A stretch of 64,000 nucleotides of DNA from Vermamoeba vermiformis. Lineage: Eukaryota. How positions within the stretch are numbered: position 1 is the first letter of the stretch; every line of letters begins with the position of its first letter. The translations under genes were made by a program, and so were the position numbers. Shown here piece after piece: positions 12,408 to 29,392 of the stretch. The notes below the pieces were generated by a model that ran no database searches, had not been told where the DNA came from, and saw only the letters and a list, made by a program, of their open reading frames with translations. The stretch is from contig JBEWZL010000145.1 of NCBI GenBank assembly GCA_045837725.1, positions 248,001 to 312,000 on the forward strand, written 5' to 3'.

Positions 12408-13442
12408 TCACATGTTGATGGAGTTCAAGAACTGTTTGAGATTGTTCTGCACATTCTTCTTCTTGTTGGTGCTATTTTTAGTCTCGTGCAACATCTTGGC
12501 CACTTGACTCTTCATGCTGTGCTTGGCGTGCTTGGACTGCGTGCTGGTCGTGTGACTCGCTGCGGTGCTGGTATGCTTTGCAGGCACGGTGCTGGTGGTA
12601 CTCATCTTTGCAGGCACAGTGCTGGTCGTGCTCATCTTTGCAGGCACAGTGCTGGTCGTGCTCATCTTTGCAGGCACGGTGCTGGTCGTGCTCATCTTTG
12701 CAGGCACAGTGCTGGTCGTGCTCATCTTTGCAGGCACGGTGCTGGTCGTGCTCATCTTTGCAGGCACGGTGTGTGTGCCAGTGTTAGTGTTGCCCTGAGT
12801 GTGCACGTGACTGACAGGCGCGGGGGGAGTCGCAGCAGTGCTCTGAGTGACAGGTGTCTCGTGCGCGACAGGGGCGTGTTGAAAGGCTATATATAGTCTC
12901 TTGTAATCGCAGCGCGCACAGTGTTGTTGCTGTCAAGTGGATGTGAGCAGAAATCAGAGCGGTGGTGCACGACTTACCAGCACATTGCGCGGGTGAGTGC
13001 TGGGCGCAGCGTCAGGCGCATTCATATGTGCGAGCATCATATTCATTTGACTCCTAGTCTCGCGTGCGGCGAGTTGAGCAGATCGGCGTGTGCGTCGCTT
13101 CGAAGACACTAAGCGCAACTTGCTCGTGATCAGTCCTCCACATGCTTGACAGATTTTACTAGCTGTACGGTGTGGTATTTCTATCGACATTGTTTATTAA
13201 TAATTATTTTTTCATATGGATCCGGATCTGCACTCACTCAAATTATCTTTCTCCGCTGCTTGCTGCATTCTAAATCTAATAACAATATTTTAAAAATTAT
13301 TCCTACGTCTACTATACACCTACAAGTAATACTGCGCGAGGTGCGGTGCATCGGGCCACAACAAGACCGCTGCATCGCTCAAGTGCTGCACGCGCCTGAT
13401 AGCCTCGGTGTTGCTTTGTACTGCGCGTGCTGGTGAGGTCAT
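12408..13442 (-). CDS. Rpr2/Rpp21/Snm1-family protein resembling C18orf21/RMP24 (putative RNase MRP-specific subunit)
   Basis: Four in-phase exons (13442-13324, 13269-13238, 13180-12978, 12929-12408): RRVQHLSDAAVLLWPDAPHLAQYYL...CQAC...CARC...SQVAKMLHE...NLKQFLNSI. Confidence 0.75.
12565..12772 (-). repeat. Coding 30-bp tandem repeat, about 6.5-7 units, encoding (STTSTVPAKM)n
   Basis: Plus-strand unit gctggtcgtgctcatctttgcaggcac(a/g)gt repeated head-to-tail with no spacers. Confidence 0.97.
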
Positions 13443-24066: not shown

Positions 24067-24652
24067 ATGGATCCACACGAGGCAGACTACACTACGAGTA
24101 GTCTTATTAAATCCATTCCTTTTCGGATAATTACCTTTCTGCAGCAAGATGCAGTATTAGCGTGGATCGTAATTGGCACCCTATTATTTATTTTCATTAC
24201 AGGGCTGCACAAGAAAATAAGACAGTTATTTTATAAAACAATCGATGCATTAACAACAAAGGATATTGGTAAGTTAGAATAATTATTTGAAATTATTATT
24301 TAAAATTTGTCAATAATTTTCGAAATTGAAAGATCCAAAAAGACAAAAAGAATTCACCGAGTCACTGCGCGCAATAAGAGAAAGACAACAAGAGATTGCT
24401 GAAAAGAAAGCTCGGGAGGCTGAGGAACGTCGTAAAGAAGAAGAAAAGTCTAAACTGCTGCGCAAGGCCACGCAAGCAGGCACTGCAGCCACATCCACTT
24501 CTACTCGCTCAGGTAGCACTACATACGCGCTATTAATACACATGACTTAACCAATACATTCGCCATTAGGCTACAATCCTCTGGGTGGCACTAGTAGCTC
24601 ACGTTATCGACCGAGTGGCTTCAGCAGACCGAAAGGAGGAGGCTGAAAATAA
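24067..24652 (+). CDS. SELENOS: Selenoprotein S (VIMP) with Sec at UGA 24644-24646
   Basis: One TM helix, a coiled coil (LRAIRERQQE...), then GYNPLGG...RYRP...KGGG-TGA-AAA-TAA; SECIS downstream. Confidence 0.88.
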
Positions 24653-24846
24653 GCGGTGGGAACACGTGTTTTCAGTGAACGAGTACTATGAGGCCCTGGT
24701 AGATAGACTGCCGCGTCATGCGTACTCCTCACTGCAAACAGTTCACACCGCCCCTCGTCCCAGCACGTACCACTGAGTGCCGCACCACGCTGCTGAGACT
24801 ACAAGCACTGTGAATATGGACCACTACGAGCACGTCGTGTCACTCG

Positions 24847-24924
24847 GCAGTGCAACGGAACAATGACGCTCTCAGTGCTCAACCCACCAAGGCCGCACGA
24901 GAGACTGACTCGCCGTTGTATTGT
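24847..24924 (+). promoter_or_regulatory. Eukaryotic SECIS element in the SELENOS 3' UTR
   Basis: Helix I gcagtgcaacgg/ccgttgtattgt; core ATGA (24863-66) with TGA (24906-08); helix II ctctc-a-gtgc/gcac-gagag; apical AA at 24881-82; AATAAA at 24941. Confidence 0.88.
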
Positions 24925-25201
24925 GACAAGCAGTTGTTTTAATAAATAGGACTTCTCGTGGATGCAGGGCCGCATTATTCTCCGCAAGATTACTGCGCAA
25001 AATCTTGGCTGAAAATATCTTGGTCTCTTTCAACCAGCAGCCTCGTTTGTAGTGTCTCATTCTGCACCGCACTGACAAACACACTACACGCTCATACTTA
25101 ATGACGTCGTAAAGTTGTATCAATCTAGAACCACCGCTCGAGAGGTAAGTCATCAGGACCGAGTTGATCCAGGCCTCCACGGCCGATCAAAAATTCAAAA
25201 A

Positions 25202-25279
25202 AATATTAGAATGATGGCTTTTTAAGCGCGTTGGACTACGGAACAATTCATGACAGATAAGAAATCCTGACTTAATATT
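25202..25279 (+). ncRNA. Box C/D snoRNA, snR58/SNORD104-like
   Basis: Terminal stem aatatta/taatatt; box C ATGATGG 25211; guide aagcgcgttggacta; D' CGGA 25239; C' ATGA 25250; box D CTGA 25267. Confidence 0.75.
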
Positions 25280-25417
25280 TTTTTTTATTTTTTATTTTCG
25301 AGATGCAGATTTGGCACTCCGTTTTCTAACAATTTTTGTTGTAGGAGGGTGCACTCTAGTTAAGTTAATTGAAAATTTAAAAGGTATGTAGTGAACTTTT
25401 TCCAATGCTAACTTTTT

Positions 25418-25486
25418 TCCCGAGGATTTAATCTAATATTAGCTCTATCTGAATATAATGATAGATATCTTTACTTGTCTGAGGGA
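25418..25486 (+). ncRNA. Box C/D snoRNA, SNORD44-like guide
   Basis: Terminal stem tccc/ggga; degenerate box C; guide tattagctcta complementary to conserved SSU rRNA UAGAGCUAAUA; D' CTGA 25449; C' ATGATA 25458; D CTGA 25479. Confidence 0.72.
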
Positions 25487-25648
25487 TCTATATTAAAAAT
25501 AGTTATTATTGTTGCACATCAAGCATTCTTTTTCTAATCGTTTGTTTAGGATTTGATCCGCTGGATCGAGATCCGTTGCCTTGAACTGAACAGCTCATCA
25601 ACATGCTTAGCGTAAGTTTGCTATGAGCTTATACGATAGATTAGTCGC

Positions 25649-25718
25649 ATTTAAGTGATGACATTGTGAACGGGCGGACTGAGTTGATGAAAATGCTGAT
25701 TCGTTCCATGCTGAATTT
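25649..25718 (+). ncRNA. Box C/D snoRNA, snR70/SNORD43-like
   Basis: Box C GTGATGA 25655; guide acgggcgg complementary to universal SSU CCGCCCGU; D' CTGA 25679; C' TTGATGA 25684; D CTGA 25711. Confidence 0.88.
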
Positions 25719-26046
25719 TTTTCGTTTTTTTCTCCTAATTCTATCCTGATTACATCATATTAATGTTGGTTGCAGGCCTACAAGATGAATCAGTTCTAAA
25801 ATTGCTTGCCCGTTGCAAAAGCGTGGATGCACAAAACCTATCACATGTTCCTCTTTCAGATCCAATAAAACCGAACCTATTTAACATGACCTTTCATGTA
25901 CTTCGTCTCTTGGGCGTACATTGCACGATGATGTTGCATCGGTCCCATATGTGATTCAATTTTTTGAGCTGCAGATAATTTTGTTACGCGGAAGTTTTCA
26001 GTTTGTTGCAACTTGCCTGGCGAGTTAACAATAAGAGAGATAGAAT

Positions 26047-27090
26047 ATGGACGTCATTACCAATACTCTTGCGCAAGTATTGGCGCCCCTTAAGCCATTC
26101 AACGATTACATGAACAATTTCGAGTACTCCAGCGAGACGCCCTTCACCAATTACAGATGGCCCTTCTCGTTCTCTTTTGGCTACTTGGTGGTCATTTGGC
26201 TGCTGCACAAATTCATGGCTAATCGTGCGCCGATGAAAGTCTATTGGGCTGGCCTTATTCACAACTTCAACATGTTTGCTCTCAGCCTTATTATGTTGAT
26301 CGGCTTGGTTTATGGCATGGTTCGAGGTCTTTGGGTACGCAATAATATATGCAATGGAAATGTGCTAATAATTGTGCTCAGGGTCACTCCTTGGAAGAGT
26401 GTGCTGAGATGATGGCTTGTGATTCAAAGAGACAGTTGGTTCGCAGCGGTCCGCTCTACTTCTGGATGTATATCTTCTATCTCTCTAAATTCTACGAGCT
26501 CTTCGACACAGTTTTGATTGTTTTGAGAAAGGTATGAAATGGGTTCACATGATCGTGGATGCGTTGGCAGTTAGATTGCGGAAATTGATGACCCATGTTA
26601 TTATATTGCTCAAAAAACAATACGAATATAACAATACTAATTATTATTGCAGAGCAAACTCCGATTTTTGCACGTTTATCACCACTGGATCACAATGGTA
26701 TTGTGCTGGGTCAGTCTCGAAACTGAGCTCCCTGTTCAGTGGTTGGCGAACATTCTCAACTCACTTGTGCACGTTCCTATGTACTACTACTACGCTATGG
26801 CTATTTTGAAGGTCGATGTCTGGTGGAAGAAGTACATCACCATGATGCAGATCATCCAGTTCGTCCTCGTGCTCACACTCCATACTATTAGCTTTTCTTG
26901 GCACTACCTCTACACCAAGAACTGCAATTCGTTCGATGACACTTGGGGCAATCAATTTGGTCTCACTGTCATTGCTTCGTATCTGGTGCTCTTCATCCAC
27001 TTTTACGCTCAGACTTACAAGAGCGGCGAGGAGGGCAATACTCCACGCACTCCTCGTGTTCCTCGTACTGACGCCAAGAAGACTCAGTAA
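26047..27090 (+). CDS. ELO/GNS1/SUR4-family fatty acid elongase
   Basis: FYLSKFYELFDTVLIVLRK, FLHVYHH, NSLVHVPMYYYY, WKKYITMMQIIQF, C-terminal KKTQ ER-retrieval motif. Confidence 0.96.
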
Positions 27091-27229
27091 ATGTAGCGCA
27101 ATCAATTGGTTCGAGAACTCGCGCTTGAATCCATTTTTGTTTTAAACTGCGAAGTGTTGAATAAATATCTCTCGTATTCGGAAGAAAGGTGCATTGGGTT
27201 TATGTACAAAATAATCAAAAAAGACAGTA

Positions 27230-29392
27230 TTAAGCCTTGTCTGCAGTCTCCACTGGTGCGTCAGTAACAACGCGCTGTTTGATGGCGAGCAGCGAGAGGT
27301 ACTTGATGACATTGAGCAAGAACTTCTTGCCTTCTTGCACATTGGAGATGGCATTGCCGGCATCGAGATAGATGCCGTTGACCCGGAAGTTCACCTTGGT
27401 CTCGAGTGACTTCTGCAGATCTGCCGAGACATTGACCGTCGCTTTGACAGCGTCAATGAAGAGTGTCGAGACAGTGGAGATGTGATCGCTGATCTGATCG
27501 GCAAACACGCGGATGTACTTGGCCTTGGTCAACAGCTCTTCGTCTGAATCTTTCACGACTGGTTCGGACTGCGCAGTTTGATGGTCACTGACAATCATGA
27601 ACTCAGCGACACGCAACAACTGCGAGGGGAGTTAATAGGGACACACGTTAATATGCGTGGTGATGCTTACGTGTTCTACAGCGAGGGCACTCAATTCAGC
27701 CAATCGTTCAGTGCCTTCGATTTGGCTTCAAATGCAGGTTAGTACACTCTAAGTGTCAATTAGTGATCTGACACGTACAATCTGTGTTGATAGGTCATCG
27801 TGAGACCAAACAGTTCGTTAGCGCCAGTCGGGACAGTCGTCAATTGGGCTACACTGGCCTCGAATTCTTTTTGCAGCTGTGTCACGCGCTCTTTGCTCTC
27901 AGCGACTTTAGCCTCAATTTGACCTAATTGTTTCTCGGCTTTCTCGTTCTAGTGTATGTGTCAGTAAGAGCGATTCAATAGCGCGTGCGTGTTACTGACC
28001 CATTTCAGCGCGGGCAGTTCTTCTTTGACATCCTCTTGTCGCTCAATGTCAAACTGTTCTTGAATCGAGGCTGATTGGTCTATAATTGCACCTTGTTAGA
28101 TCACTGTTATGAGTGCGCTCATATCACATACCATCAACTGTTTCACGCACTGAGGCATGGAGTTGACGATAGGCCTGTTGAATTTTCATCATGCACTCGA
28201 TGGACATGTACTCCAAGGCCTGAATGTTGGCAGCACCGAGTCGTTGTTCAAAATAGGCATCGAATGTCATTTCAGCATTCTTCTTCACAGAGGGACTGGA
28301 CGCAGTGCTGGAGGGATCAGTCTCTTCGTCGAGATTGACCGTCAAGCGTGACACGAGCTTGGGCTTGTTCTCGGGACCCACTTCAGTCGTGGTCAACAAT
28401 TGCAGTGCTTTTTCACCGACTTGTTCCAGGGCATCGAGACCACGGTGCGCCAAGTCACCCCCGACTTTGAAGCCCTGATCGACGAGCTGATTCTCGCGCA
28501 CGGTGGTGATCACTGCTTTGGCCTTCTCTTGCGCCTTGTTGGCCACTGTGCTCAGATCTGTGTTGGCGACTTTATCGACACCTTTTTGAATGATGTTGCC
28601 CAGGTAATTGGCGGTGTTGCCGATCAATGAAAACAAACCCTGGTTGATGATGCAGATCCGTTAATGACACGTGTCAAGTGGGGTGAGTACTTACGGCATC
28701 ATCTTCAGCGGTCTGCTGCTCTGAGGGCTGTGCATCACCTTCACCAGGGTTAGTAGTGTTCGTATTATTCTCAACACTACCACTCGAAGTGTCGTTAGTT
28801 TCAGTCGTGTTTGTGTCGCCGCTGCTCTCTTCTTTGACGATCAGACTCGGCTCCTCTTTCTTCTCATCCTCGCCGATCACTTTGGCAATTTCAGATACTA
28901 TGATTTTTAAAATTATTATTAATATTAAATATCGATGTGAAGGCATTAATTATGAAAAATGCAGAAAAATAACGTTGAAATATTTTCGATTTTGAACGTG
29001 AAAAATAACTAATTACCTGTATCACCGACGGTATCCAATGCTGGCTTAACATATTCGCCGACCTTCGAGGACACGCTAGAAATTATACCCCAGCCCCAGC
29101 CCCAGCCTTTGCCTAATGCAAATTATATTGAGTAATTATTATCGATATTCCAAAATCTTTTCGTACTTTCAGTCTTGGGCTCTGGCTTTGGTACTTCAAC
29201 AGGCTGCTGTTTGACAGGCTCAGGTGCTTTTTCAGCTGGTTTAGGACTTGCTTCTTTTTGAGGAGCTGGATCAGCTTGCGGTTGTTCGGGCTTAGATTCA
29301 GGTTGTGGAGCTGATTGGTGCTCAGATGCTGCATCTTGTGGCACTACTGGCACTGTTTGTTCAGTAGGCGTGCTCTCTGCGACGTCTGACAT
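27230..29392 (-). CDS. FAM114-like protein
   Basis: Acidic/Pro-rich N-terminus, GWGWG motif, GLDALEQVGEKALQLL and FDAYFEQRLGAANIQALEYMS segments, helical C-terminus. Confidence 0.72.

What the first reader, a model, noticed from the sequence alone, without database searches (positions are those of the whole stretch)
25025..25885. Hidden non-coding host gene with one C/D snoRNA in each of three introns
Seen: the apparent gap between SELENOS and the elongase contains a CTCTTTC start, three long (164-200 nt) GT-AG introns against the usual ~50 nt, tiny internal exons (39 and 62 nt) that close all three reading frames, and AATAAA at 25864. Each intron holds one C/D cassette ending about 60-75 nt upstream of its 3' splice site. 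Established: this is the layout of animal 5'TOP snoRNA host lncRNAs (GAS5/UHG type), and that spacing favours splicing-coupled snoRNP assembly; Dictyostelium C/D snoRNAs are reported to be mostly independently transcribed. Inference: a dedicated snoRNA host lncRNA in an amoeboid protist, pointing to deep ancestry or convergence.
Basis: partly seen in the sequence, partly recalled or inferred. Interest (0 to 1): 0.85.

Follow-up and report, generated by a model that had tools for sequence, protein, structure and literature searches.

The report
Non-coding host gene with three snoRNAs
The gap between two protein genes holds a small spliced RNA gene that codes for no protein and whose three introns each carry a methylation-guide snoRNA, an arrangement known from animals and fungi and here seen in an unnamed, probably amoeboid, protist.

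Summary
The sequence at 25025-25885 has three GT-AG intervals of 200, 166 and 164 nt, internal exons of 39 and 62 nt, stops in all frames, and AATAAA at 25864. Each interval holds one box C/D cassette, with the D box 74, 67 and 61 nt before the 3' splice site.

One RNA-derived contig of a near-identical strain joins 25383 to 25550 exactly, so intron 2 is spliced. The same contig retains intron 3.

- Cassette 2 carries the SNORD44 antisense element and pairs 11 bp with 18S at the Am166 site.
- Cassette 3 carries the SNORD43 element and pairs 8 bp at the conserved Cm1703/Cm1639 site.
- Cassette 1 has the best box and stem structure, but only a tentative target.

The spliced RNA has no ATG ORF longer than 13 codons. 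The elongase mRNA contig starts at 26026 without upstream exons.

Not tested: junctions 1 and 3, the 5' end (TOP claim), the poly(A) site and mature snoRNA accumulation. No Rfam family reaches its gathering score.

The layout is already described for fungi (Neurospora) as well as animals. This is therefore a new member of a known kind, of interest mainly because Dictyostelium snoRNAs are almost all intergenic.

The parts
25025..25144 (+). Putative exon 1 of the host RNA.
   Evidence: The sequence is read, and the 5' splice site GAG|GTAAGT lies at 25144/25145. No read or contig defines the start. The upstream gene's AATAAA at 24942 limits the start to roughly 24970-25144.
25145..25344 (+). Intron 1 (200 nt), GTAAGT...CTAAC...TTGTAG. 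Splicing was not observed.
   Evidence: A branch-point-like CTAAC sits 14 nt before the acceptor. No RNA coverage in X1.
25200..25281 (+). C/D cassette 1 (about 82 nt). C box AUGAUGG 25211-25217, probable D' CGGA 25239-25242, C'-like AUGACAG 25250-25256, D CUGA 25267-25270, and a 10-bp terminal stem 25200-25209/25272-25281.
   Evidence: RNAfold gives the terminal stem. 0 of 2000 shuffles of the intron reach its score. One or two reads per run from a roughly 92% relative map here and not in the two flanking bins. The only target lead is 8 bp (1 G-U) in register on an LSU C.
25345..25383 (+). Exon 2 (39 nt).
   Evidence: Its last 18 nt are joined to exon 3 in X1 contig record 3. The 16 loose letters match only 25366-25381 in the window.
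25384..25549 (+). Intron 2 (166 nt), GTATGT...CTAAT...TTTAG. Splicing is confirmed.
   Evidence: X1 record 3 joins 25383 to 25550.
25418..25486 (+). C/D cassette 2 (69 nt). Degenerate C box AGGAUUU 25423-25429, D' CUGA 25449-25452, C' AUGAUAG 25458-25464, D CUGA 25479-25482, and a 4-bp stem UCCC/GGGA.
   Evidence: Residues 25438-25452 match Rfam SNORD44 consensus positions 45-59 at 14 of 15. The guide pairs 11 Watson-Crick bp in register with 18S in 4 of 4 full SSU loci. The full-length weak hits are SNORD24 at 21.2 bits and SNORD27 at 17.9 bits, both below gathering.
25550..25611 (+). Exon 3 (62 nt).
   Evidence: Covered by X1 record 3. Three of the 4 strain differences in L048 lie here.
25612..25775 (+). 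Intron 3 (164 nt), GTAAGT...TGCAG. It is retained in the only contig that covers it.
   Evidence: X1 record 3 runs unbroken from 25548 to 25805.
25651..25718 (+). C/D cassette 3 (about 68 nt). C GUGAUGA 25655-25661, D' CUGA 25679-25682, C' UGAUGA 25685-25690, D CUGA 25711-25714 (other CUGA at 25696 and 25746). The terminal stem is weak, 2-4 bp.
   Evidence: The D' guide plus box ACGGGCGGACUGA matches the Rfam SNORD43 consensus in the same register. It pairs 8 Watson-Crick bp with 18S CACACCGC[C]CGUCGC in 3 of 4 SSU loci; the fourth, divergent locus pairs 8 bp with 2 G-U. 2 of 2000 shuffles reach its score.
25776..25885 (+). Putative last exon with AATAAA at 25864-25869. The 3' end is not mapped.
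   Evidence: X1 record 3 covers it up to 25805 only. AATAAA is plausibly used in this organism: the elongase mRNA contig ends at 27176, 10 nt after AATAAA 27161-27166.

Best explanation
An RNA polymerase II transcript of about 860 nt is made from the + strand, from roughly 25025 to roughly 25885. It lies between a selenoprotein-S-like gene and an ELO-family elongase gene.

It has four short exons and three introns. Each intron carries one box C/D snoRNA about 60-75 nt upstream of the 3' splice site.

Splicing releases the introns. After debranching, exonucleases trim them back to the snoRNP-protected box C/D cores, giving three guide RNAs of about 82, 69 and 68 nt (inferred).

- Cassette 2 guides 2'-O-methylation of the 18S adenosine equivalent to human Am166, through its D' element.
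- Cassette 3 guides the pan-eukaryotic 18S cytidine (human Cm1703, yeast Cm1639, Dictyostelium Cm1715), also through D'.
- Cassette 1 may guide the large-subunit cytidine 14 nt downstream of the U18 site. This is a lead only.

The spliced RNA of about 330 nt has no ORF above 13 codons. It is a by-product or carrier, not an mRNA.

Shown: the sequence anatomy, splicing of intron 2, the absence of an ORF, and the guide-target complementarity.

Inferred: the transcript ends, splicing of introns 1 and 3, the processing route, snoRNP assembly, and the methylation itself.
For: Anatomy:
- The intervals have canonical splice sites, and introns 1 and 2 have CTAAC or CTAAT branch motifs.

Splicing:
- X1 holds spliced contigs of both neighbouring genes, so it is RNA.
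- Its record 3 carries 16 letters that occur only at 25366-25381, followed directly by 25548 onward. That is the junction 25383/25550.

snoRNA identity:
- Cassette 1 has a 10-bp terminal stem flanking its C and D boxes, and 0 of 2000 shuffles reach its score.
- Cassette 2 matches the SNORD44 guide plus box at 14 of 15 and pairs 11 bp with 18S in 4 of 4 SSU loci. SNORD44 corresponds to Am166 (PMC11550049 table; bioRxiv 10.64898/2026.09.11.751006 passage).
- Cassette 3 matches the SNORD43 guide plus box in the same register and pairs 8 G-C-rich bp at the decoding-centre C. U43, snR70, CD28 and AtU43 all guide this site (PMC8817022, Table 1).
- In controls, 0 of 588 pseudo-guides reach 11 bp or hit either site.

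Non-coding:
- The longest ATG ORF is 13 codons when spliced and 41 codons when unspliced.

Separate from the elongase:
- The mRNA contig record 4 begins at 26026 with no loose end.
- AATAAA lies at 25864.

Conservation pattern:
- In a second strain (L048, 388 nt aligned), 4 of 4 differences lie in the 101 exon bases and 0 lie in the 287 intron bases.
- Reads of a roughly 92% relative fall on cassettes 1 and 3 but not on the flanking bins. These are very few reads.
Against: - No Rfam family reaches its gathering score anywhere in the window.
- The family matches are local and have E-values of 0.11-6.3 even in searches of about 95 nt.
- Cassette 2 has a poor C box, with 3 of 7 positions off consensus, and it fails the shuffle test's entry criterion.
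- Cassette 3 has almost no terminal stem.
- An 8-bp duplex alone is common: 36 of 588 controls have one.
- Intron 3 is retained in the only contig that covers it, and junctions 1 and 3 were not seen.
- The splicing evidence is one contig of one run, with 18 nt on the short side.
- No data exist on the 5' end, the poly(A) site or mature small RNAs.
- The organism's own rRNA was not available. Targets were tested on other eukaryotes' rRNA, and positions 1268-2927 of the LSU model were not covered at all.
Confidence: 0.77

Rival explanations
1. The short exons are upstream 5'-UTR exons of the elongase gene. On this reading the snoRNAs sit in 5'-UTR introns of a protein-coding host and there is no dedicated lncRNA.
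For: The same strand is used, and only about 160 nt separate AATAAA 25864 from the elongase ATG at 26047. An AG at 26023-26024 lies just before the start of the elongase contig at 26026. X1 has no coverage between 25806 and 26025, so the 3' end of the host RNA was not observed.
Against: The elongase mRNA contig (depth 26.5) begins at 26026 with no loose letters from an upstream exon, whereas the host contig does show such letters at its junction (tables 7 and 8). AATAAA at 25864 is in the same kind of context as the signal 10 nt before the end of the elongase contig. By eye, I saw no GTAAGT- or GTATGT-type donor between 25776 and 26020 in the sequence.
Confidence: 0.08
2. The precursor is polycistronic and is processed mainly by endonuclease and exonuclease cleavage, as in yeast, plant and Dictyostelium clusters. 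Splicing would be incidental. In particular, cassette 3 would lie in a terminal exon rather than an intron.
For: Intron 3 is retained in the only contig across it. Cassette 3 lacks a terminal stem. Dictyostelium C/D snoRNAs are intergenic, half of them in clusters (PMC8817022, passages read).
Against: Intron 2 is demonstrably spliced. All three intervals have strong GTAAGT or GTATGT donors and pyrimidine-AG acceptors. The constant 61-74 nt spacing between D box and acceptor fits splicing-coupled assembly as described for vertebrates, Drosophila and Neurospora (PMC2780460, passages read). Partly spliced intermediates are expected in any RNA sample.
Confidence: 0.1
3. The cassettes are chance box-like motifs or decayed snoRNA relics in the AT-rich introns of an otherwise functionless transcript.
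For: No Rfam hit reaches gathering. The loose C/D finder yields 17 hits in the window, several of them inside coding sequence. Cassette 2 has a degenerate C box.
Against: There are three cassettes in three consecutive introns on the same strand, all at similar distances from the acceptor. 0 of 2000 and 2 of 2000 shuffles reach the observed scores. Two guides are identical to known family guides, in the right register at known methylation sites, while 0 of 588 controls do this. There are no strain differences inside the introns.
Confidence: 0.04

Closest known systems
Animal non-coding snoRNA host genes (UHG, GAS5, SNHG family)
   Same: It is a multi-exon spliced RNA with no meaningful ORF and one box C/D snoRNA per intron. 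The snoRNAs are placed a fixed short distance upstream of the 3' splice site. In one small comparison the exons vary between strains and the introns do not. One cassette carries the guide of SNORD44, which by my recollection lies in a GAS5 intron in human.
   Different: It is tiny: about 860 nt of gene and about 330 nt of spliced RNA, with introns of 164-200 nt. The 5'TOP start, NMD sensitivity and polyadenylation were not tested. There is no sequence similarity of the exons to any known host. The SNORD44-type guide sits upstream of D' here, but upstream of D in the Rfam consensus.
UHG-like box C/D snoRNA cluster hosts of Neurospora crassa and yeasts (PMC2780460, passages read)
   Same: The organism is a non-animal eukaryote with short introns. 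The host has little coding potential, one snoRNA per intron, and canonical splice sites flanking every snoRNA. Partially or alternatively spliced forms are detected.
   Different: The Neurospora clusters are conserved with yeast and carry other snoRNA sets. Here, conservation of the host beyond strain level could not be tested.
Dictyostelium discoideum box C/D snoRNA genes (PMC8817022, passages read)
   Same: It is possibly the same supergroup. The same conserved 18S C methylation site (Cm1715, guided by CD28) is targeted as by cassette 3.
   Different: In Dictyostelium 46 of 47 are intergenic, as single genes or clusters, and only CD38 is intronic. No site near 18S position 160 is listed in that paper's Table 1, whereas cassette 2 targets one.
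Rfam SNORD44 (RF00287) and SNORD43 (RF00221)
   Same: The antisense element plus the adjacent box is identical (14 of 15) or near-identical, in the same register.
   Different: The scores of 12.9 and 11.4 bits are far below the gathering scores of 40 and 45. The rest of each RNA is unrelated or only faintly similar.

Membership tests
Box C/D methylation-guide snoRNA | C box RUGAUGA near the 5' end | tested here: inconclusive
   Cassette 3 has GUGAUGA (exact). Cassette 1 has AUGAUGG (one mismatch). Cassette 2 has AGGAUUU, which keeps only the core GA and U5 and is off consensus at 3 of 7 positions.
Box C/D methylation-guide snoRNA | D box CUGA near the 3' end, brought next to the C box by a terminal stem | tested here: inconclusive
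   CUGA is present in all three cassettes. The terminal stem is 10 bp in cassette 1, 4 bp in cassette 2, and only 2-4 bp in cassette 3.
Box C/D methylation-guide snoRNA | An antisense element of about 9 nt or more directly upstream of D or D', pairing with rRNA so that the fifth nucleotide from the box is a modification site | tested here: met
   Cassette 2 pairs 11 bp at the SNORD44/Am166 site. Cassette 3 pairs 8 bp at the SNORD43/Cm1703 site. Both were tested on other eukaryotes' 18S. Cassette 1 has only a lead, 8 bp with 1 G-U. The organism's own rRNA is not available.
Box C/D methylation-guide snoRNA | Score at or above the gathering threshold of an Rfam C/D family | tested here: not met
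   There are 0 hits at gathering in the window. The best sub-threshold hit is 21.2 bits against a threshold of 41.
Box C/D methylation-guide snoRNA | Accumulates as a stable RNA of about 60-100 nt bound by fibrillarin, Nop56/58 and Snu13 | not testable with these tools
   No small-RNA or total-RNA reads of this organism were available.
Non-coding snoRNA host gene (UHG/GAS5 type) | Spliced transcript whose introns hold the snoRNAs | tested here: inconclusive
   Junction 25383/25550 was seen in one contig of one run. Intron 3 is retained in that contig. Junction 1 has no coverage.
Non-coding snoRNA host gene (UHG/GAS5 type) | No long or conserved ORF in the spliced RNA | tested here: met
   The longest ATG ORF is 13 codons, and all three frames are closed.
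Non-coding snoRNA host gene (UHG/GAS5 type) | One snoRNA per intron, about 60-80 nt upstream of the 3' splice site | tested here: met
   The distance from the end of the D box to the last intron base is 74, 67 and 61 nt (with the intron 1 acceptor correction).
Non-coding snoRNA host gene (UHG/GAS5 type) | 5'-terminal oligopyrimidine transcription start | not testable with these tools
   The CTCTTTC motif exists at 25025, but no 5'-end data cover it.
Non-coding snoRNA host gene (UHG/GAS5 type) | Exons less conserved than the intronic snoRNAs | tested here: inconclusive
   In the strain comparison, 4 of 4 differences lie in exons and 0 in introns over 388 nt. The direction is right, but the sample is very small and no distant relative was available.
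Non-coding snoRNA host gene (UHG/GAS5 type) | Polyadenylated, short-lived spliced product (NMD or translation-dependent decay) | not testable with these tools
   AATAAA lies at 25864 only. The contig stops at 25805.

The most novel reading that the evidence does not exclude
Dedicated non-coding host genes with one C/D snoRNA per intron, placed at a fixed distance from the acceptor for splicing-coupled snoRNP assembly, were already present in the common ancestor of Amoebozoa and Opisthokonta. On this reading, the intergenic arrangement of Dictyostelium is a secondary loss, and the animal and fungal hosts are not a later invention.
Probability: 0.15. Interest if true: 0.6.

Novelty: new member of a known kind. 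Interest (0 to 1): 0.4.

Why it matters
snoRNA annotation in protists is thin. The best-studied amoebozoan, Dictyostelium, keeps nearly all its C/D snoRNAs in intergenic units.

This locus is a clear non-coding, multi-intron host with one snoRNA per intron, in an unrelated and probably amoebozoan protist whose ordinary introns are very short. It shows that the layout is not confined to animals and fungi.

The introns appear to be enlarged to just the size needed to hold a snoRNA at the usual distance from the acceptor. The locus therefore offers a compact natural system for studying splicing-coupled snoRNP assembly.

It also assigns two, perhaps three, conserved rRNA methylation sites to guides in this organism. 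For gene annotation, it warns that such 'empty' intergenic gaps hold real genes.

Tried and rejected
- **Rfam at gathering on the whole window.** It gave nothing.
- **Whole genome of the window.** None is held, so the organism's own rRNA, snRNAs and further snoRNA loci could not be searched.
- **Three raw RNA-seq runs (X21-X23).** These carry the same species label as a holder, but they turned out to be a roughly 90-95% relative. They cover only the elongase coding exons, so they give no junction information for the host.
- **Metagenome search with elongase exon 1.** It found 1 locus (46 stretches matched a pattern, 1 was confirmed). This was a chimeric contig of a near-identical strain. It is useful for a strain comparison of 388 nt only and gives no synteny in a distant relative.
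- **Obtaining a complete eukaryotic LSU rRNA.**
  - The genome search with the LSU family failed twice on the machine.
  - A pattern search in the genome behind L003 found 0 matches.
  - The contig ends 1.2 kb after the 18S.
  - Two viral-contig scans gave only LSU fragments.
  - As a result, positions about 1268-2927 of the LSU model were never tested as targets.
- **D-box guides and alternative D' positions.** The D-box guides of all three cassettes, and several alternative D' positions of cassette 1, gave only duplexes that were not conserved or were 8-10 bp with G-U pairs. I do not count these.
- **Cassette 1 as a U38/snoZ223 homologue.** It shares 16 consecutive identical nt around C' with the snoZ223 consensus. 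That snoZ223 belongs with the U38/snR61 guides of the Am1133/Am1858 site is my recollection, not a call result. By my recollection of the sequence that follows, the printed context around base 1105 of the L029 LSU piece puts that site inside the tested stretch, and the guide gave no duplex of 8 bp or more anywhere on it. I rejected this as a target assignment.
- **Bacterial promoter and terminator scan.** It is irrelevant here and at background level: 3 found against 3.1 expected.
- **SECIS search downstream of the upstream gene, and Pfam on its middle exon.** Both gave nothing, so the 'SELENOS' label is unverified.
- **Earlier findings of this scan.** There is nothing on this genome or this sequence. 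Two unrelated intronic-snoRNA notes came up by words.
- **Other loose C/D candidates in the window.** Examples are 31974, 36533 and 63358. They lie in coding sequence or at a start codon, and I dropped them.
Full report
**1. What is in the sequence**

The window region 25025-25885 lies between two genes.
- The upstream gene's last exon ends ...GGG-TGA-AAA-TAA at about 24650 and has AATAAA at 24942.
- The downstream gene is an ELO-family elongase. Its ATG is at 26047, and Pfam PF01151 matches with E = 8e-35 on exon 3 and 6.5e-09 on exon 1.
- The 'SELENOS' label of the upstream gene is not verified. Pfam finds nothing on its middle exon, and Rfam finds no SECIS in 24640-25030.

Between them, on the + strand, are three GT-AG intervals (the first acceptor was re-indexed by hand):
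- 25145-25344: 200 nt, GAG|GTAAGT ... TTGTAG|G.
- 25384-25549: 166 nt, AAG|GTATGT ... TTTAG|G.
- 25612-25775: 164 nt, AGC|GTAAGT ... TGCAG|G.

Other features:
- Introns 1 and 2 have CTAAC or CTAAT 12-14 nt before the acceptor.
- The internal exons are 39 and 62 nt.
- AATAAA is at 25864-25869.
- The introns have 28-36% G+C and the exons 31-48%.
- The four introns of the neighbouring genes that RNA contigs confirm are 64, 57, 47 and 121 nt.

**2. Transcript evidence**

The one read-laying run used three raw RNA-seq runs and one set of Logan contigs (X1).

The raw runs come from a relative with 90-95% identity in the elongase coding exons. They say almost nothing about the non-coding gap.

X1 is a near-identical strain, and it is RNA. 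Its contigs skip the introns of both neighbours (24267/24332, 24510/24568, 26333/26381, 26529/26651).

X1 record 3 (274 nt, depth 6.2) consists of 16 letters followed by window 25548-25805.
- Those 16 letters occur once in the window, at 25366-25381 (0 of 100 shuffles give a match).
- The next two letters, AG, fit both the end of exon 2 and the end of intron 2.
- The same contig runs straight through 25612-25775, so intron 3 is unspliced in that molecule population.
- Nothing in X1 covers exon 1, intron 1, or 25806-25925; the following depth bin (25926-26032) holds only the first bases of the elongase contig.

The elongase mRNA contig (record 4, depth 26.5) begins at 26026, with no loose letters. 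It ends at 27176, 10 nt after AATAAA 27161-27166.
- This speaks for AATAAA being used as a poly(A) signal.
- It speaks against the short exons being elongase 5'-UTR exons.
- Contig ends are not transcript ends, so this remains an argument and not proof.

**3. The three cassettes**

Cassette 1 (25200-25281)
- It has AUGAUGG at 25211 and CUGA at 25267.
- RNAfold closes a 10-bp terminal stem around them.
- 0 of 2000 dinucleotide shuffles of intron 1 reach its score.

Cassette 2 (25418-25486)
- It has a 4-bp UCCC/GGGA stem.
- The order of boxes is C-like AGGAUUU, D' CUGA, C' AUGAUAG, D CUGA.
- Its C box keeps only the central GA and the following U. It therefore fails my one-mismatch criterion, and the shuffle test does not apply.

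Cassette 3 (about 25651-25718)
- It has exact GUGAUGA, CUGA, UGAUGA and CUGA boxes in the right order.
- It has hardly any terminal stem.
- 2 of 2000 shuffles reach its score.

The D boxes end 74, 67 and 61 nt before the acceptor.

**4. Guides and targets**

At gathering thresholds Rfam reports nothing in the window. In permissive searches of each cassette alone, two local matches stand out.
- Residues 25438-25452 (AUUAGCUCUAUCUGA) match 14 of 15 positions of the SNORD44 consensus, namely its antisense element plus box (12.9 bits, E = 1.6).
- ACGGGCGGACUGA of cassette 3 aligns with the SNORD43 antisense element plus D' in the same register (11.4 bits, E = 6.3).

These E-values are not significant on their own, so I tested complementarity directly. 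No genome is held for the window. I therefore collected eukaryotic rDNA that contaminates bacterial genome records, using a recalled 19-nt 18S motif.
- Rfam confirmed eukaryotic SSU in 10 of 10 loci checked, 4 of them full length.

Results on those loci:
- The D' guide of cassette 2 forms 11 contiguous Watson-Crick pairs from guide position 2 with CUAG[A]GCUAAUA in 4 of 4 full SSU sequences. The loci were selected with a motif that contains this site, so that count is not independent. What it shows is that the site is a conserved part of 18S.
- The bracketed A is the fifth nucleotide from the box. It is the same nucleotide that the SNORD44 consensus selects.
- SNORD44 is listed as the guide of human 18S Am166 (PMC11550049, table passage; bioRxiv 10.64898/2026.09.11.751006, passage).
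- The D' guide of cassette 3 forms 8 Watson-Crick pairs, 7 of them G-C, with CACACCGC[C]CGUCGC in 3 of 4 SSU sequences. The fourth, divergent sequence pairs 8 bp with 2 G-U.
- This is the site guided by U43 in human (Cm1703), snR70 in yeast (Cm1639), CD28 in Dictyostelium (Cm1715) and AtU43 in Arabidopsis (PMC8817022, Table 1 passage).

As a control, I took the 20 nt upstream of every other CTGA in the window on both strands, giving 588 pseudo-guides.
- 36 reach 8 bp somewhere on one 18S.
- 10 reach 9 bp.
- 1 reaches 10 bp.
- 0 reach 11 bp.
- 0 hit either of the two sites.

Cassette 1 has only a lead.
- With CGGA (25239) read as D', its guide pairs 8 bp (1 G-U) with GAGU[C]UAAC of an LSU fragment (L051).
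- That C lies 14 nt downstream of the U18-site A, which is the offset between the SNORD18 and SNORD104 sites in the table of PMC11550049.
- 19 of 127,960 window 20-mers do the same.
- I tried about five D' positions, and in two fungal loci this stretch of LSU differs.

The three D-box guides found no convincing target in the rRNA available. About half of the LSU was never available (see Tried and rejected).

**5. Coding potential and variation**

- With the proposed ends, the spliced RNA is 331 nt. All frames are closed and the longest ATG ORF is 13 codons. Unspliced, the longest is 41 codons.
- A metagenome contig of a 98-99% strain (L048, a chimera of three pieces of this same neighbourhood) covers 25334-25721.
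- Its 4 differences are at 25346, 25560, 25562 and 25611. All lie in exons 2 and 3 (101 nt), and none lies in the 287 intron bases.
- If differences fell at random, this would happen with probability about 0.005. It is still only four events.
- In the roughly 92% relative, one or two reads per run fall in the bin holding cassette 1 in all three runs, and in the bin holding cassette 3 in two of the three runs. There are none in the bins between, and none on cassette 2.

**6. Organism**

- A Rab GDI exon and a myosin head exon have 98-99% and 79-87% relatives only in unnamed metagenome or run assemblies.
- The best named hits are Arcella intermedia (48%, myosin), Physarum (65%) and Balamuthia (63%) for GDI, with animals at similar levels.
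- An amoebozoan origin is plausible but not shown.

**7. Interpretation**

The most likely reading is a small, dedicated, non-coding snoRNA host gene (confidence about 0.77).
- Pol II transcription produces the precursor.
- Splicing removes the introns; this is shown for intron 2.
- The three C/D snoRNAs are released by debranching and exonucleolytic trimming (inferred).
- They guide methylation at two conserved 18S sites, supported by complementarity, and perhaps at one LSU site.

Retention of intron 3 in the only contig may reflect slow splicing or a partly spliced intermediate. It keeps alive the alternative that cassette 3 is processed from an unspliced 3' region.

The rivals are as follows.
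- 5'-UTR exons of the elongase (0.08).
- Splicing-independent polycistronic processing (0.10).
- Chance or decayed motifs (0.04).

**8. Comparison and novelty**

- The architecture is that of UHG/GAS5-type hosts.
- It is not confined to animals. Neurospora crassa has five C/D clusters, conserved with yeast, whose hosts have only 159-267-bp ORFs. They hold one snoRNA per intron, at distances to the splice sites like those in Drosophila and human, and they show alternative splicing (PMC2780460, abstract and passages read).
- In Dictyostelium, 46 of 47 C/D snoRNAs are intergenic (PMC8817022, passages read).
- In Tetrahymena most are intergenic, with a few in introns of protein genes (PMC3273799, passages read).
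- Two full-text searches for snoRNA host genes in Amoebozoa gave no report of a non-coding host there: 33 papers held at least 3 of the 4 terms, 15 listed; 12 papers held all 3 terms. The library covers open-access papers only, and supplements were not seen.

I therefore rate this a new member of a known kind. It is a tidy, well-supported example in a poorly sampled lineage and is useful for annotation. It is of moderate evolutionary interest, not a new mechanism.

Noticed in passing
Rfam confirms eukaryotic SSU rRNA in 10 of 10 loci checked, so these records carry contaminating eukaryotic rDNA.
   Followed up: partly
L048:1-3375: The only metagenome relative is a low-coverage contig that joins three pieces of this same neighbourhood in mixed orientation: window 26059-28969 forward, 25721-25334 reverse and 27274-27193 reverse. 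It is probably an assembly chimera of a 98-99% strain.
   Followed up: partly
window 26034-26487: In all three RNA-seq runs of the roughly 92% relative, recurrent 'opposite strands' joints link 26034 or 26046 with 26487 or 26475, with 12 shared letters, in the elongase 5' region. The cause is unexplained; it could be an inverted repeat or a library artefact in the relative.
   Followed up: no
window 24227-24960: The upstream gene ends GGG-TGA-AAA-TAA, as a selenoprotein S would with TGA read as Sec. However, Rfam finds no SECIS in 24640-25030 and Pfam finds nothing on exon 24332-24508. Strain X1 has an in-frame GCA insertion after 24598.
   Followed up: partly
window 25245-25260: Cassette 1 shares 16 consecutive identical nucleotides with the Rfam snoZ223 consensus around its C' box, although its guide does not fit that family's target.
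   Followed up: partly
window 12408-12932 (- strand): The ORF holds six tandem copies of a 10-residue unit (STTSTVPAKM).
   Followed up: no
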